This document shows positions 5,850-8,718 of a stretch of 8,718 bases of DNA, one piece after another. The stretch lies in the IMG/VR virus record IMGVR_UViG_2529292985_000034. One strand, written 5' to 3'. The number at the start of each line of letters is the position of its first letter. Within the stretch, counting starts at the first letter, position 1. Below the pieces are notes generated by a model, which saw only the letters and a program-made list of their open reading frames with translations, ran no database searches and was not told the DNA's origin. A program made the translations under genes and the position numbers. The stretch comes from a virus. Lineage: Duplodnaviria; Heunggongvirae; Uroviricota; Caudoviricetes.

Positions 5850-6152
5850 ATGAGCAGAAAAAACCAACGTTACTCTAAAGAGTTCAAAGCCGAAGCTGTC
5901 AGAACGGTTCTTGAAAATCAACTTTCGATCAGTGAAGGCGCTTCCCGATTATCCCTTCCTGAAGGCACTTTAGGACAATGGGTTACCGCCGCCAGAAAAG
6001 GGCTCGGTACTCCTGGTTCCCGCACGGTGGCTGAACTGGAATCTGAAATTCTGCAACTGCGTAAGGCGTTAAATGAAGCTCGCCTTGAGCGAGATATATT
6101 AAAAAAAGCAACAGCGTATTTTGCACAGGAGTCGCTGAAAAATACGCGTTAA
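5850..6152 (+). CDS. IS3-family transposase OrfA (HTH, leucine zipper), 100 aa
   Basis: MSRKNQRYSKEFKAEAVR... is typical of IS3-family OrfA. Slippery A7 run at 6101-6107 near its 3' end. Confidence 0.9.
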   Translation: MSRKNQRYSKEFKAEAVRTVLENQLSISEGASRLSLPEGTLGQWVTAARKGLGTPGSRTVAELESEILQLRKALNEARLERDILKKATAYFAQESLKNTR

Positions 6153-6187
6153 TCGAACAATGGCGACAACAATTTCCCATTGAAGCG

Positions 6188-7006
6188 ATGTGTCAGGTAT
6201 TTGGTGTATCCAGGAGCGGTTATTACAACTGGGTACAGCATGAACCCTCAGACAGAAAACAAAGTGATGAGCGGCTAAAACTGGAGATTAAGGTGGCACA
6301 TATCCGCACTCGCGAAACATATGGAACCCGGCGGCTCCAGACGGAGCTGGCAGAGAATGGCATCATCGTTGGTCGTGACCGACTGGCACGTCTTCGTAAG
6401 GAGCTAAGGCTACGCTGTAAGCAGAAACGCAAGTTCAGAGCGACTACGAACCCGAACCACAATCTGCCAGTTGCGCCAAATCTGCTGAACCAGACGTTCG
6501 CTCCTACAGCACCAAATCAGGTCTGGGTGGCGGACCTGACGTATGTTGCCACACAGGAGGGATGGTTGTACCTCGCTGGCATCAAAGATGTTTATACGTG
6601 CGAAATTGTCGGCTACGCCATGGGAGAGCGCATGACAAAAGAGCTGACAGGTAAAGCCCTGTTTATGGCGCTCAGGAGCCAGCGCCCACCTGCCGGGCTA
6701 ATCCACCACTCTGATCGAGGTTCACAGTACTGCGCATACGATTACCGGGTCATACAGGAGCAGTCTGGTCTGAAAACATCAATGTCGCGTAAAGGTCACT
6801 GTTACGACAACGCTCCGATGGAAAGCTTCTGGGGAACGCTGAAAAATGAGAGCCTGAGCCACTATCGTTTTAATAACCGGGATGAAGCCATCTCAGTAAT
6901 ACGGGAATACATTGAGATTTTCTACAATCGTCAGCGTCGTCACTCTCGTCTGGGGAATATCTCCCCGGCAGCCTTCAGGGAAAAATATCATCAGATGGCT
7001 GCTTAA
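6188..7006 (+). CDS. IS3-family transposase OrfB (DDE catalytic domain), 272 aa; expressed as OrfAB fusion by -1 frameshift
   Basis: DDE motif residues in WVADLTYV, HHSDRGSQY and YDNAPMESFWGTLK. The orfB frame is -1 relative to orfA and is open upstream back to the A7 slippery site. Confidence 0.9.
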   Translation: MCQVFGVSRSGYYNWVQHEPSDRKQSDERLKLEIKVAHIRTRETYGTRRLQTELAENGIIVGRDRLARLRKELRLRCKQKRKFRATTNPNHNLPVAPNLLNQTFAPTAPNQVWVADLTYVATQEGWLYLAGIKDVYTCEIVGYAMGERMTKELTGKALFMALRSQRPPAGLIHHSDRGSQYCAYDYRVIQEQSGLKTSMSRKGHCYDNAPMESFWGTLKNESLSHYRFNNRDEAISVIREYIEIFYNRQRRHSRLGNISPAAFREKYHQMAA

Positions 7007-7049
7007 AAAAAGAACAAATGGTAGTGTCCGCTATTGCCAGTACACCTCA

Positions 7050-7894
7050 GTTTACTGGTGGGCTACATCGCCTGGCTGGCGACCGCTTACCGGATGAGCT
7101 TTTCCCGCGAAATCAATCTGGGCCTGGCGCAACATGAGTTCGAATTGTTCTGTCAGCCTTTGCTTAATGCGCGCAGCCAGCAATGTATTGGTGTAGAGAT
7201 TTTGCTGCGCTGGAACAATCCGCGTCAGGGCCGGATTTCACCGGATGTGTTTATTCCTATCGCGGAAGAACATCATTTAATTGTGCCACTGACCCGCTAT
7301 GTGATGGCAGAAACCATTCGTCAGCGCCATGTTTTCCCGATGAGTAGTCAGTTTCATGTTGGCATTAACGTCGCACCCAGCCATTTTCGCCGTGGTGTGC
7401 TGATAAAAGATCTCAATCAGTACTGGTTTAGCGCTCACCCGATTCAGCAACTGATCCTCGAAATCACCGAACGCGATGCCTTACTGGATGTTGATTATCG
7501 GATTGCCCGCGAGCTACATCGTAAAAACGTCAAACTGGCGATTGATGACTTCGGCACCGGCAACAGTTCATTTTCCTGGCTTGAAACATTACGTCCTGAC
7601 GTGCTGAAAATTGATAAGTCATTTACCGCAGCTATAGGTTCTGACGCGGTTAACTCGACGGTGACCGATATCATCATCGCGCTGGGGCAAAGACTGAATA
7701 TTGAACTGGTGGCGGAGGGCGTGGAAACGCAAGAACAGGCGAAGTATTTGCGCCGTCATGGCGTGCATATTTTGCAAGGGTATTTGTACGCACAGCCGAT
7801 GCCGCTACGTGATTTTCCCAAATGGCTGGCGGGCAGCCAACCGCCGCCCGCCCGGCATAATGGACATATCACGCCCATTATGCCGTTACGTTAA
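7050..7894 (+). pseudogene. EAL-domain c-di-GMP phosphodiesterase gene, 5'-truncated by IS600
   Basis: EAL-domain motifs ELFCQP, DDFGTG, KIDKSF and VAEGVET. A transmembrane segment (LSLLVGYIAWLATAY) precedes the EAL domain. The reading frame is open right up to the IS end with no credible native start, consistent with a CSS-type membrane phosphodiesterase that has lost its N-terminal half. Confidence 0.8.
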
Positions 7895-7960
7895 CGCTGA
7901 TATGACTTTCCGTGTCAAACCGGAATCTCTAATTTTGACGATTTTCTTTTTAGGTTTAAT

Positions 7961-8145
7961 TCCCTGAGGGCGACGTAGCAGTAAATCCGACGGTGAATCA
8001 CGCTGATATTCGCGGGTTGGATACCGCATTACAGAGGTCCGTCATATGAGCCTGCCACTTTCTTACGTCGCGAATCAGCTTTGTTCCGCCGTCGCCAAGC
8101 GCTAACGTGGGTTACTCTTGTACCGGGCTACGTCGCCTTCAGGGA
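7961..8145. repeat. 185-bp structured palindromic element, closed by 19-bp inverted repeats
   Basis: TCCCTGAGGGCGACGTAGC (7961-7979) pairs with 8127-8145 at 18 of 19 positions. Internal inverted repeats include GCTGATATTCGCG (8002-8014) with CGCGAATCAGC (8069-8079) and GTAAATCCGACG with CGTGGGTTAC, on different centres. Lies 18 bp 3' of the IS110-family transposase stop. Confidence 0.5.
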
Positions 8146-8163
8146 ACTGGTTATTCTCATTTT

Positions 8164-8718
8164 TTATTTGTGACATTGTGGTTGTTGTGCGACAGACATT
8201 GCTATTCGGCCCATATCCCAGATAAAACCCGCCAGCTCACGTGCAACAGCAACAATTGTAATATTGACATTCTTTCCTTTGGCCTGAAGTTTTCGATACC
8301 TCTTACAAAGCCTGAGTTGAGCATCCCATGCTCTGTCAATGACGGGGCGGGGTAAATTTTCCTGCCTTTTTTGTATTGCCGGACTGATGCGTGCCGGATG
8401 ACGGTAACTCCACGCTGCCTCGACCAATAGCTTTCTGGCATAGCTGTTTCCGGCTTTGGTAATGCTGCCCTGATGTCTGCTTCCACCCGATGAATATTCT
8501 GATGGCGTGATACCAAACCATGACATCAGTTGTCGTGGATGTTCAAAACGGGTCAGATCACCCAGTTCAGAAATTAATCCAACCGCAGTAATAAACTGAA
8601 TCCCTCGCATGGCTTGCAGCGCCTCTACTACCGGATACAGCCTCCATTCGGTAACGGCCTCCTTCAGGGCGGATTCCAGCCGTTCACATTGTGCCTGCCG
8701 GTCTTCTATTGTACGACG
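8164..8718 (-). CDS. IS110-family transposase, C-terminal part (N-terminus beyond window end)
   Basis: Minus-strand frame is open from the window edge to the stop at 8166-8164. GIQFITAVGLISELGDLTRF...GSRHQGSITKAGNSYARKLL is characteristic of the IS110/IS116/IS902 transposase C-terminal domain. Confidence 0.8.
   Translation of the reverse strand, partial: RRTIEDRQAQCERLESALKEAVTEWRLYPVVEALQAMRGIQFITAVGLISELGDLTRFEHPRQLMSWFGITPSEYSSGGSRHQGSITKAGNSYARKLLVEAAWSYRHPARISPAIQKRQENLPRPVIDRAWDAQLRLCKRYRKLQAKGKNVNITIVAVARELAGFIWDMGRIAMSVAQQPQCHK

What the first reader, a model, noticed from the sequence alone, without database searches (positions are those of the whole stretch)
7961..8145. Highly structured 185-bp element directly 3' of the IS110-family transposase: candidate IS-encoded ncRNA (bridge/seek RNA) or palindromic target/MITE
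A 19-bp near-perfect inverted repeat encloses 147 bp that contain several further inverted repeats on different centres, that is, multiple stem-loops rather than one simple palindrome. It begins 18 bp after the transposase stop. IS110-family recombinases work with a structured guide ncRNA encoded in a non-coding end of the element (left end in the IS110 group, right end in the IS1111 group), and several family members insert into palindromic repeats. Either explanation is interesting and neither is visible from ORFs.
Basis: partly seen in the sequence, partly recalled or inferred. Interest (0 to 1): 0.6.

Follow-up and report, generated by a model that had tools for sequence, protein, structure and literature searches.

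The report
Guide RNA gene of insertion sequence ISSso6
The structured 185-bp stretch is the gene for the guide ("bridge" or "seek") RNA of the mobile element ISSso6, which tells the element's recombinase where to insert; this kind of RNA is already known, and one was already predicted at this end of this element.

Summary
A 20-nt inverted repeat (7960-7979 / 8127-8146) closes a multi-stem element 17 nt after the transposase stop codon.

The element lies inside the IS. Five independent insertions and two empty sites put the IS end at 7899, with a 2-bp core at 7897-7898 and no target duplication. The IS is ISSso6, IS1111 group: a 13-14 bp subterminal inverted repeat and a long 3' non-coding region.

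About 60 relatives (81-48% protein identity) carry the same RNA just downstream of the transposase on the same strand. It is a roughly 190-nt three-way-junction RNA with strong covariation (21 compensatory pairs against 6.7 in shuffles).

One internal loop holds two hypervariable guides that track each element's flanks. The 5' strand is complementary to core plus right flank. The 3' strand is identical to left flank plus core. No permutation out of 20,000 reached the observed match.

A second loop carries AUAUCAG (IS right end plus core) followed by a base that tracks the first flank base, like an IS621 handshake guide.

The predicted ISSso6 target is GTA|AG|CGYTAACG. This is the terminal repeat of IS66-family elements and look-alike chromosomal sites.

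The MITE / host-palindrome reading is rejected. Durrant et al. 2024 already list "ISSso6, bridge RNA end: RE, IS1111", so this is a correct rediscovery of low novelty.

The parts
7897..7898 (.). 2-bp core (CT on the + strand, AG in IS orientation). It is present once in empty sites and at both junctions of the inserted IS.
   Evidence: Comparison of empty and occupied sites at pdeD/yoaE (L006 vs L005/window) and at mokC/nhaA (L007 vs L003).
7899..8718 (-). 3' part of ISSso6 (IS110 family, IS1111 group). The complete element is 1518 bp plus the core. The window ends inside the transposase gene.
   Evidence: Homology among five independent insertions stops at 7899. RefSeq annotation is ISSso6.
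8164..8718 (-). C-terminal 184 codons plus the stop codon of the DEDD/Tnp recombinase (375 aa in full copies).
7901..7914 (-). Right-end copy of the subterminal inverted repeat (CACGGAAAGTCATA). Its partner TATGACTTTCCGTG lies in the left end, outside the window.
7913..7918 (-). Outward-facing TTGACA (-35 box), conserved in the 41 aligned close relatives. In the circular form it lies 17 nt from CAGTAT in the left end, which would make a junction promoter (inferred).
   Evidence: Alignment; junction sequence assembled; the Pjunc concept for the IS1111 family is from PMC11187229.
7957..8150 (-). Bridge/seek RNA gene (about 194 nt): a basal stem plus two arms, each an internal loop capped by a hairpin.
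   Evidence: Covariance model hit of 198 bits on the minus strand against 31 bits on the plus strand. Structure. Coordinates.
8127..8149 (-).
   Evidence: 22 pairs, 11 with compensatory changes.
7957..7979 (-). Basal stem P1, 3' arm.
8097..8107 (-). Target guide 1 (RNA CGUUAGCGCUU, 5' strand of the target-binding loop). It is complementary to the top strand of core plus right flank (A-AG-CGCTAACG).
   Evidence: complementarity of 0.71-0.89 per position to flank +1..+5 across relatives; permutation test 130/189 against 54 +/- 6.6.
8062..8066 (-). Target guide 2 (RNA GUAAG, 3' strand of the same loop). It is identical to left flank GTA plus core AG, so it would pair with the bottom strand.
   Evidence: identity of 0.83-0.96 to flank -3..-1; permutation test 68/120 against 35.7 +/- 4.7.
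8070..8095 (-). Hairpin P5 capping the target-binding loop.
   Evidence: 6 of 8 pairs have compensatory changes.
8002..8009 (-). Donor guide AUAUCAG (last 5 nt of the IS right end plus core AG), followed by C8002. C8002 tracks the first base of the right flank, like a handshake guide.
   Evidence: MI scan: column 166 against flank +1, identity 0.86, MI 1.01. The donor motif changes with the right end in distant relatives.
8028..8038 (-). 5' strand of the second (donor) loop, ACCUCUGUAAU. CUGU can pair with RCAG at the IS left end. The match is weak in this clade and clear in others.
   Evidence: In the D group, UCUGUCU is complementary to AG|ACAGA.
8012..8027 (-). Hairpin P6 (GCGG-UAUCCAAC-CCGC) capping the second loop.
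7989..7993 (-). 3' half of the helix closing the second loop (CCGUC, pairing with GACGG at 8039-8043).
   Evidence: Single-sequence folds of 20 relatives and compensatory variants in L081, L087 and the D group.

Best explanation
The element is the gene for the guide RNA (bridge RNA / seekRNA) of ISSso6, an IS1111-group member of the IS110 family. It is transcribed on the transposase strand (window minus strand). Transcription is probably read-through of the transposase mRNA from the promoter that forms when the IS circularises: TTGACA in the right end plus CAGTAT in the left end. The roughly 190-nt RNA folds into a 22-bp basal stem carrying two arms. In arm 1, an internal loop presents CGUUAGCGCUU, which pairs with the top strand of core plus right target half. 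The same loop presents GUAAG, which pairs with the bottom strand of left target half plus core. Together they specify 5'-GTA|AG|CGYTAACG-3'. This is the terminal inverted repeat of IS66-family elements, and it also occurs at chromosomal look-alikes such as the pdeD/yoaE junction in this window. In arm 2, an internal loop presents AUAUCAG (IS right end plus core) and weakly CUGU (IS left end), which would hold the donor junction. The next base (C8002) matches the first target base past the core, as the handshake guide does in IS621. Bound to the DEDD/Tnp recombinase, the RNA brings donor and target together for a conservative exchange at the 2-bp core, with no target duplication. Shown here: location, conservation, structure, guide/flank covariation, and insertion without duplication. 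Inferred: transcription, processing, protein binding and strand-exchange chemistry.
For: (1) The IS boundaries and 2-bp core come from five insertions and two empty sites, and the element is 58 bp inside the right end. (2) IS1111 hallmarks are present: a 13-14 bp subterminal inverted repeat, a 3' non-coding region of 265 nt against 125 nt at the 5' end, and DEDD plus Transposase_20 domains. (3) In 41 relatives the element is the only conserved block of the 3' non-coding region apart from the right end. (4) The structure has 49 pairs that are 97.9% paired. 21 pairs show compensatory changes, against 6.7 +/- 1.6 in shuffles (0 of 500) and 3-8 in slid controls. (5) A covariance model finds a full-length hit directly 3' of the transposase in all 61 sources searched, which span about 81-48% protein identity (55-220 bits). 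In the window the sense strand scores 198 bits and the antisense strand 31 bits. (6) Guide/target co-variation: an unbiased MI scan puts flank -1..-3 against columns 103-101 (identity) and flank +1..+5 against columns 58-54 (complement) at the top. In permutation tests, none of 20,000 permutations reached the observed match. (7) The top-strand match lies 5' of the bottom-strand match, as reported for IS1111 seekRNAs (PMC11187229). (8) Durrant et al. 2024, Supplementary Table 5, lists ISSso6 with 'Detected Bridge RNA End = RE, group IS1111'.
Against: There are no expression data, so transcription, the RNA ends and protein binding are not shown. No sigma-70-like promoter was found on the minus strand within the IS part of the window, so expression depends on read-through or the inferred junction promoter. 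The donor loop's 5' strand matches the left end only weakly in the ISSso6 clade. For ISEc11, an 82-nt seekRNA was sufficient for transposition; that length would fit arm 1 alone here, so the function of arm 2 is uncertain. A few relatives (L010, L049, L058) fit their flanks only after a 1-2 nt register shift. The handshake-like match is not seen in the B and C subfamilies. Rfam 15 has no matching family, and the published covariance models could not be run.
Confidence: 0.9

Rival explanations
1. It is a host palindromic repeat (REP/ERIC-like) or a MITE that the IS happened to insert next to or into. Under this reading the 185 bp is target DNA and not part of the IS.
For: Several IS110/IS1111 members do target palindromic repeats (PMC11187229). 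Short fragments of the element (73-90 bp, 77-89% identity) occur without an adjacent transposase in about 100 E. coli genomes.
Against: The element is the same in five insertions whose flanks differ, and homology ends 58 bp beyond it at 7899. Empty sites go straight from flank to flank without it. Full-length copies match the number of IS copies, and those I inspected sit next to the transposase or its pseudogene. The element is conserved 3' of homologous transposases in Burkholderiales, Rhizobiales, Desulfobacterales and other orders. The isolated fragments are single, partial relics.
Confidence: 0.02
2. It is a cis-acting structure in the transposase mRNA's 3' UTR (a terminator, a stabiliser against 3' exonucleases, or an attenuator) with no guide function.
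For: The long basal stem lies directly after the stop codon, and the minus-strand RNA folds well below its dinucleotide shuffles (z -4.9). The RNA is probably co-transcribed with the transposase.
Against: No U-tract follows the stem, and the terminator scan found nothing on the minus strand here. A stabiliser would not need two hypervariable loop segments that track the left and right flanks of each relative, or an invariant copy of the IS right end (AUAUCAG).
Confidence: 0.04
3. It acts as DNA: a cruciform or folded single-strand recombination site recognised by the recombinase (attC-like), not an RNA.
For: Both strands fold about equally well as single strands (z -4.9 and -5.8). The guide/flank matches are strand-symmetric in principle.
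Against: Many conserved pairs are G-U on the transposase strand and would be A-C on the other strand: columns 4/212 (34 of 39), 20/197 (19), 44/116 (19), 168/180 (36). The covariance model scores 198 against 31 bits for the two strands. The recombination sites themselves map 58 bp away, at the IS ends. In related IS the non-coding region works in trans as RNA (PMC11187229).
Confidence: 0.03

Closest known systems
seekRNA of ISEc11 and other IS1111-family IS (Siddiquee et al. 2024, PMC11187229)
   Same: It is encoded in the long non-coding region 3' of the transposase in an IS with subterminal inverted repeats. [quoted passage not shown] Insertion makes no duplication. A junction promoter forms on circularisation.
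   Different: The ISSso6 transposase shares only 17-25% identity with the roughly 50 IS transposases shown in the excerpt of that paper's identity matrix, and at 375 aa it is longer than the 330-350 aa quoted for the family. The target is different (GTAAGCGYTAACG, not GTGAAAATACTG). The RNA here is bounded by a 22-bp basal stem and has a second loop with right-end identity, which that paper does not discuss. Nothing has been tested experimentally for ISSso6.
IS621 bridge RNA (Durrant et al. 2024, PMC11208160; Hiraizumi et al. 2024, PMC11208158)
   Same: There are two internal loops, one for the target and one for the donor, each with two guides meeting at a 2-bp core. Read on the opposite strand, the ISSso6 core is CT, as in IS621, and the loop order matches: LTG then RTG, and RDG plus core plus handshake base. 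The base after the donor guide co-varies with the target base next to the core.
   Different: The ISSso6 RNA is encoded in the right end downstream of the gene, whereas the IS621 RNA is in the left end upstream. The guide order is mirrored relative to the gene. The subterminal repeats are long. The proteins are related only weakly (E = 2e-5 over the Tnp domain). The donor left-end guide is weak in this clade.
Predicted bridge RNA of ISCARN28 and other IS1111-group elements (Durrant et al. 2024, Fig. 6, Extended Data Fig. 10, Supplementary Table 5)
   Same: They belong to the same ISfinder group. A bridge RNA was detected in the right end by covariance models, and ISSso6 itself is listed there as 'RE, IS1111'.
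   Different: Only the table entry exists for ISSso6. I did not find its guides, target or structure described in the papers I searched.
IS4321/IS5075, which target the terminal repeats of Tn21-family transposons (Partridge & Hall 2003, cited)
   Same: These are IS1111-group elements whose preferred target is the terminal inverted repeat of another mobile element.
   Different: The host element here is the IS66 family. Three of the five sites examined are IS66-family ends, a small sample.

Membership tests
IS110 family, IS1111 group insertion sequence | DEDD (RuvC-like) N-terminal domain plus Transposase_20 C-terminal domain with the G--P----SG motif | tested here: met
   Pfam PF01548 and PF02371. 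NCBIfam transpos_IS110 for the window part. G260, P263, S268 and G269 are invariant in 12 relatives.
IS110 family, IS1111 group insertion sequence | Subterminal inverted repeats of 7-17 bp, set in from the ends | tested here: met
   TATGACTTTCCGTG / CACGGAAAGTCATA lies 4-5 nt from each end and is conserved, with co-varying inner positions, in relatives.
IS110 family, IS1111 group insertion sequence | The longer non-coding region lies downstream of the transposase | tested here: met
   265 nt at the 3' end against 125 nt at the 5' end.
IS110 family, IS1111 group insertion sequence | Site-specific insertion without target-site duplication | tested here: met
   Two pairs of empty and occupied sites show only a shared 2-bp core. 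The flanks share the consensus GTA|AG|CGYYAACG.
IS110 family, IS1111 group insertion sequence | Circular intermediate with a junction promoter | not testable with these tools
   The sequence is compatible: TTGACA-17 nt-CAGTAT across the joined ends.
Bridge RNA / seekRNA | Encoded in the IS non-coding end on the transposase strand, and conserved among relatives | tested here: met
   Strand asymmetry is 198 against 31 bits.
Bridge RNA / seekRNA | Conserved secondary structure supported by covariation | tested here: met
   21 compensatory pairs against 6.7 +/- 1.6 in shuffles.
Bridge RNA / seekRNA | An internal loop with two guides matching opposite strands of the left and right target halves, overlapping at the core, and changing with the target | tested here: met
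   Natural retargeting is seen across 27 and 20 distinct guide classes, and no permutation out of 20,000 reached the observed match.
Bridge RNA / seekRNA | A second loop complementary to the donor (the joined IS ends) | tested here: inconclusive
   The 3' strand equals the right end plus core in the subfamilies inspected, exactly or with one mismatch, and changes when the right end changes (L087; B group 6 of 7). The 5' strand match to the left end is clear in the D and B groups, L086 and L087 but is only 3-4 nt in the ISSso6 clade.
Bridge RNA / seekRNA | A handshake guide: the base(s) after the donor guide match the non-cognate (target) DNA | tested here: met
   Column 166 against flank +1: identity 0.86, MI 1.01 within the ISSso6 clade. 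The match is not seen in the B and C subfamilies. The definition is from PMC11208158.
Bridge RNA / seekRNA | The RNA is bound by the recombinase and required for circle formation and insertion | not testable with these tools
   Requires an experiment.
Bridge RNA / seekRNA | Match to published bridge RNA covariance models | not testable with these tools
   Rfam 15 has no such family. The published result for ISSso6 is 'RE'.
Host palindromic repeat / MITE | Many copies independent of any transposase, lying outside the IS boundaries | tested here: not met

The most novel reading that the evidence does not exclude
The ISSso6 clade may define a distinct IS1111-type bridge RNA architecture: a three-way junction closed by a 22-bp stem. 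Its geometry would be the exact mirror image of IS621 (CT core on the opposite strand, RDG plus core plus handshake base), which would show that handshake-assisted strand exchange also operates in the IS1111 group. Its natural programme would be to hunt the terminal repeat of IS66-family elements. Recognition of the donor left end would rest largely on the protein and the subterminal repeat, with little contribution from the RNA.
Probability: 0.45. Interest if true: 0.35.

Novelty: already known. Interest (0 to 1): 0.25.

Why it matters
It shows that a sequence-only reader can pick out a guide RNA gene that ORF-based annotation misses. RefSeq annotates nothing under this element ('none').

For ISSso6 specifically, the analysis gives a concrete, testable map. 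The target code is GTA|AG|CGYTAACG, with guide positions at 8097-8107 and 8062-8066, the donor motif at 8003-8009 and a handshake-like base at 8002.

It also gives a set of about 27 naturally reprogrammed relatives. These could serve anyone engineering IS1111-type bridge recombinases, for which no structure has been solved.

Biologically, it explains why this IS sits in the ends of IS66-family elements and, in this window, in the 3-bp gap between pdeD and yoaE. It does not change what is known about the system.

Tried and rejected
- **Rfam 15**, whole window, E <= 1: only a spurious mir-2001 hit on an unrelated hairpin at 7853-7885. No bridge RNA family is available.
- **Promoter scan:** no sigma-70-like promoter for the RNA on the minus strand.
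- **GGCAG and UAUGAC as left-end guides:** I first read 'GGCAG...UAUGAC' (RNA nt 95-109) as a copy of the left end (GGCAG|TATGAC). I rejected this because GGCAG lies in covariation-supported stems P3/P4, and the UAUGA patch varies among relatives whose left end is invariant.
- **RNAalifold helices 27-30/126-128 and 168-171/177-180:** these are invariant and unsupported. A competing helix UGACGG/CCGUCG fits all subfamilies better.
- **Variable patch 3 (8042-8047) and the three bases after the left guide (8059-8061):** an MI search for partners gave only clade-level signals and no convincing pairing. These patches remain unexplained.
- **Handshake base in the target loop:** I looked for a base after GUAAG matching the start of the left end. 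The result was inconsistent among relatives.
- **PDB sequence search:** only IS621 and ISCro4, matched weakly. No structure prediction was run because it would not bear on the RNA.
- **Census of all ISSso6 sites in E. coli:** not done, because the search tool lists one place per record.

Full report
**Observation**

The window carries, on its minus strand, the 3' part of an IS110-family transposase gene with its stop codon at 8164-8166. Seventeen nucleotides further on, a 20-nt inverted repeat (7960-7979 / 8127-8146, 95% complementary) encloses 147 nt that contain further nested repeats. As RNA, the minus strand of 7955-8150 folds to -79.1 kcal/mol against -56.8 +/- 4.5 for dinucleotide shuffles (z = -4.9).

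**Where the IS ends**

The 819 bases from 7900 to the window end occur at 99.4-100% identity in the listed E. coli chromosomes and plasmids, annotated as ISSso6. I compared four such insertions in unrelated contexts (L001-L004), plus a second genome with the window's own insertion (L005). Homology continues past the structured element and stops at 7899.

Empty versions of two sites settle the junctions:
- pdeD/yoaE empty: ...CGTTAACG[CT]TACTCATC. Occupied: ...CGTTAACG[CT]GATATGAC...IS...CATACTGC[CT]TACTCATC.
- mokC/nhaA shows the same pattern.

So there is no target duplication, only a 2-bp core (CT on the window + strand, AG in IS orientation). The IS is 1518 bp plus the core.

It has a 13-14 bp subterminal inverted repeat (TATGACTTTCCGTG / CACGGAAAGTCATA). 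Its 5' non-coding region is 125 nt and its 3' non-coding region is 265 nt. These are the hallmarks of the IS1111 group as described in PMC11187229 and PMC11208160. The structured element therefore lies inside the IS, 58 bp from its right end. That alone removes the 'host palindrome / MITE' reading.

**Conservation**

The transposase has thousands of relatives. I fetched 80 loci spanning 81-48% protein identity, mostly Burkholderiales but also Rhizobiales, Desulfobacterales and others. Most of them showed a recognisable version of the same layout:
- left flank, AG, then the left end, which starts NCAGTATGAC in the ISSso6 clade;
- the gene;
- about 40 variable nt;
- a conserved block of about 190 nt;
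- about 40 variable nt;
- a -35-like box (TTGACA in the ISSso6 clade), the subterminal repeat, and the IS end, followed by AG or AA and the right flank.

In an alignment of 41 distinct 3' non-coding regions, the block homologous to 7957-8150 is the only conserved part apart from the right end.

**Structure**

On 39 distinct sequences (A2), RNAalifold predicts 49 pairs. 97.9% of cells are paired. 21 pairs show changes on both sides, against 6.7 +/- 1.6 in column shuffles (0 of 500) and 3-8 when partners are slid by 1-3 columns.

The supported helices are:
- P3 and P4;
- hairpin P5;
- hairpin P6.

Two predicted helices are invariant and unproven. Single-sequence folds of 20 relatives favour a different helix, UGACGG/CCGUCG, closing the second arm. 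It has compensatory variants: GACGA/UCGUC in L081, AUCGA/UCGAU in L087 and GCGACG/CGUCGC in the D group.

Many conserved pairs are G-U on this strand. A covariance model built from A2 scores the window at 198 bits on the minus strand and 31 bits on the plus strand. It finds a full-length hit directly 3' of the transposase in all 61 sources searched (55-220 bits). The feature is an RNA on the transposase strand. It has a basal stem and two arms, and each arm is an internal loop capped by a hairpin.

**Guides**

Within the conserved block there are hypervariable patches.

*Patch 1.* This is the 5' strand of the first internal loop (ISSso6 CGUUAGCGCUU, window 8097-8107). It is the reverse complement of core plus right flank.

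*Patch 2.* This is the 3' strand of the same loop (GUAAG, window 8062-8066). It equals left flank plus core.

Across relatives the patches change with the flanks. For example, L010 has GAACAAG with the flank gaacaAG, and L018 has GCGGAAG and UGGUAUU with the flanks gcggaAG and AAtacca.

I ran a scan of mutual information between every RNA column and every flank or end position, with no prior assumption. The top hits were:
- flank -1..-3 against columns 103-101, identity 0.96, 0.92 and 0.83;
- flank +1..+5 against columns 58-54, complementarity 0.89, 0.86, 0.83, 0.86 and 0.71.

I also shuffled the pairing of guides and flanks among distinct guide classes, excluding the constant core:
- right guide: 130 of 189 matches observed, against 54.3 +/- 6.6 (maximum 82 in 20,000 shuffles);
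- left guide: 68 of 120 observed, against 35.7 +/- 4.7 (maximum 57).

The top-strand match lies 5' of the bottom-strand match, the order reported for IS1111 seekRNAs.

For ISSso6 the guides specify 5'-GTA|AG|CGYTAACG-3'. At the window's own site they would form 10 Watson-Crick pairs plus one G-T with A-AG-CGTTAACG. Three of the five sites examined are the end of an IS66-family element just past tnpC (GTAAGCGTCAACGGAGCACC...). The other two are chromosomal look-alikes.

**Second loop**

Its 3' strand carries AUAUCAG (window 8003-8009), which is the last five bases of the IS plus the core.
- The motif is essentially invariant in the clade.
- It changes where the right end changes. L087 has AUGAGAG with the end ATGAG|AG. 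The B group has AUCAGAG, a 6 of 7 match.

The next base (column 166, window 8002) tracks the first base of the right flank (identity 0.86, MI 1.01).

The 5' strand is clearly complementary to core plus left end in other subfamilies: in the D group, UCUGUCU pairs with AG|ACAGA. In the ISSso6 clade only CUGU pairs with RCAG.

If the target is read on the opposite strand, the core becomes CT, as in IS621. The layout then becomes LTG-RTG in loop 1 and (LDG)-RDG-core-handshake base in loop 2. That is the IS621 geometry, including the handshake position defined by Hiraizumi et al.. This equivalence is my inference.

The function of the second arm is less certain than that of the first. An 82-nt seekRNA sufficed for ISEc11, and that length would fit the first arm alone here.

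**Expression**

No sigma-70-like promoter was found on the minus strand in the IS part of the window. The right end carries an outward TTGACA (7913-7918, minus strand), conserved in the 41 aligned close relatives. In the joined ends it lies 17 nt from CAGTAT, a junction promoter of the kind described for this family. Co-transcription with the transposase followed by processing is the likely route, but this is inferred.

**Independence from the IS**

A sensitive search with the 194-nt element alone finds full-length copies in 40 records from 30 genomes. This matches the number of IS copies. In the one full-length hit examined that differed from a standard ISSso6 copy (H51, 97.9% identity), the element lies next to a frameshifted IS110 transposase. 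The remaining hits are single fragments of 73-90 bp without a transposase. I take these to be relics.

**Comparison with what is known**

IS1111-group elements are known to encode their guide RNA in the right end (PMC11208160, PMC11187229). Supplementary Table 5 of Durrant et al. lists 'ISSso6 | Detected Bridge RNA End: RE | IS1111'. The ISSso6 transposase is also in the data set of Siddiquee et al..

None of the six papers that mention ISSso6 treats its guides, structure or target in its title or abstract; I did not read them in full. The anatomy given here therefore adds detail, not a discovery. No IS1111-group recombinase structure is in the PDB.

**Verdict**

The feature is real and functional in kind. 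It is an already known type of element in an element where it had already been flagged. Confidence in the guide RNA explanation is 0.9; interest is 0.25.

Noticed in passing
window 7880-7900; L006 (empty site): ISSso6 sits in the 3-bp gap between the convergent genes pdeD (stop at 7892-7894) and yoaE. Because the core CT is kept at both junctions, the yoaE stop codon (TTA on the + strand) is regenerated and neither gene is disrupted.
   Followed up: partly
window 5850-7033: An IS3-family element (orfA 5850-6152, orfB 6188-7006) truncates pdeD, so only its EAL half remains (7034-7894). In other E. coli, sdaA and an intact pdeD lie upstream of this point. Here a tyrosine integrase (1-1218) and ORFs with no NCBIfam match lie upstream, which suggests an island or a rearrangement.
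   Followed up: partly
L001, L002, L004 (right flank of ISSso6); L090 3764: Three of the five ISSso6 sites examined are the terminal repeat of an IS66-family element (GTAAGCGTCAACGGAGCACCGTATTGACGC). The insertion lies 5 bp inside that end. This resembles IS4321/IS5075 targeting the ends of Tn21-family transposons.
   Followed up: partly
relatives L014, L016, L018, L020, L022, L024, L040, L051, L056 and the D group (L062, L074, L076, L078, L082): The left-junction core is AG in nearly all relatives, but the right-junction core is AA in these elements. Their right guide then reads UU where ISSso6 has CU. UU guides also occur with AG, which is possible through U-G pairing. The second core position therefore seems tolerant. 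L004 has GG at the right junction.
   Followed up: partly
L073 3350-3543 and 3728-3921; L059 4919-5082; L033 1325-1521 and 2661-2868; L008 3170-3356: Some relatives have odd arrangements. L073 has two tandem copies of the RNA. L059 has the RNA about 1.8 kb downstream of the gene. L033 and L008 have RNA genes interrupted by inserted DNA, with the remaining part and the right end further on.
   Followed up: no
E. coli genomes, e.g. L089 2501-2573 and L090 2501-2590: Single fragments of 73-90 bp of the RNA gene (77-89% identity), with no transposase nearby, occur in roughly 100 E. coli genomes, including ST131 strains. They are probably relics of decayed related IS.
   Followed up: partly
window 8042-8047 and 8059-8061 (minus strand): Two further variable patches in the RNA have no identified partner: AUAUGA after stem P3, and AAA after the left guide. 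In ISSso6 the first patch happens to repeat the left-end TATGA, but that match is not kept in relatives.
   Followed up: partly
window 7853-7885: A perfect 11-bp hairpin (CGGCATAATGG...CCATTATGCCG) lies in the last codons of pdeD, just before the insertion site. It gave a spurious mir-2001 Rfam hit. It may be a shared terminator for the convergent genes.
   Followed up: no
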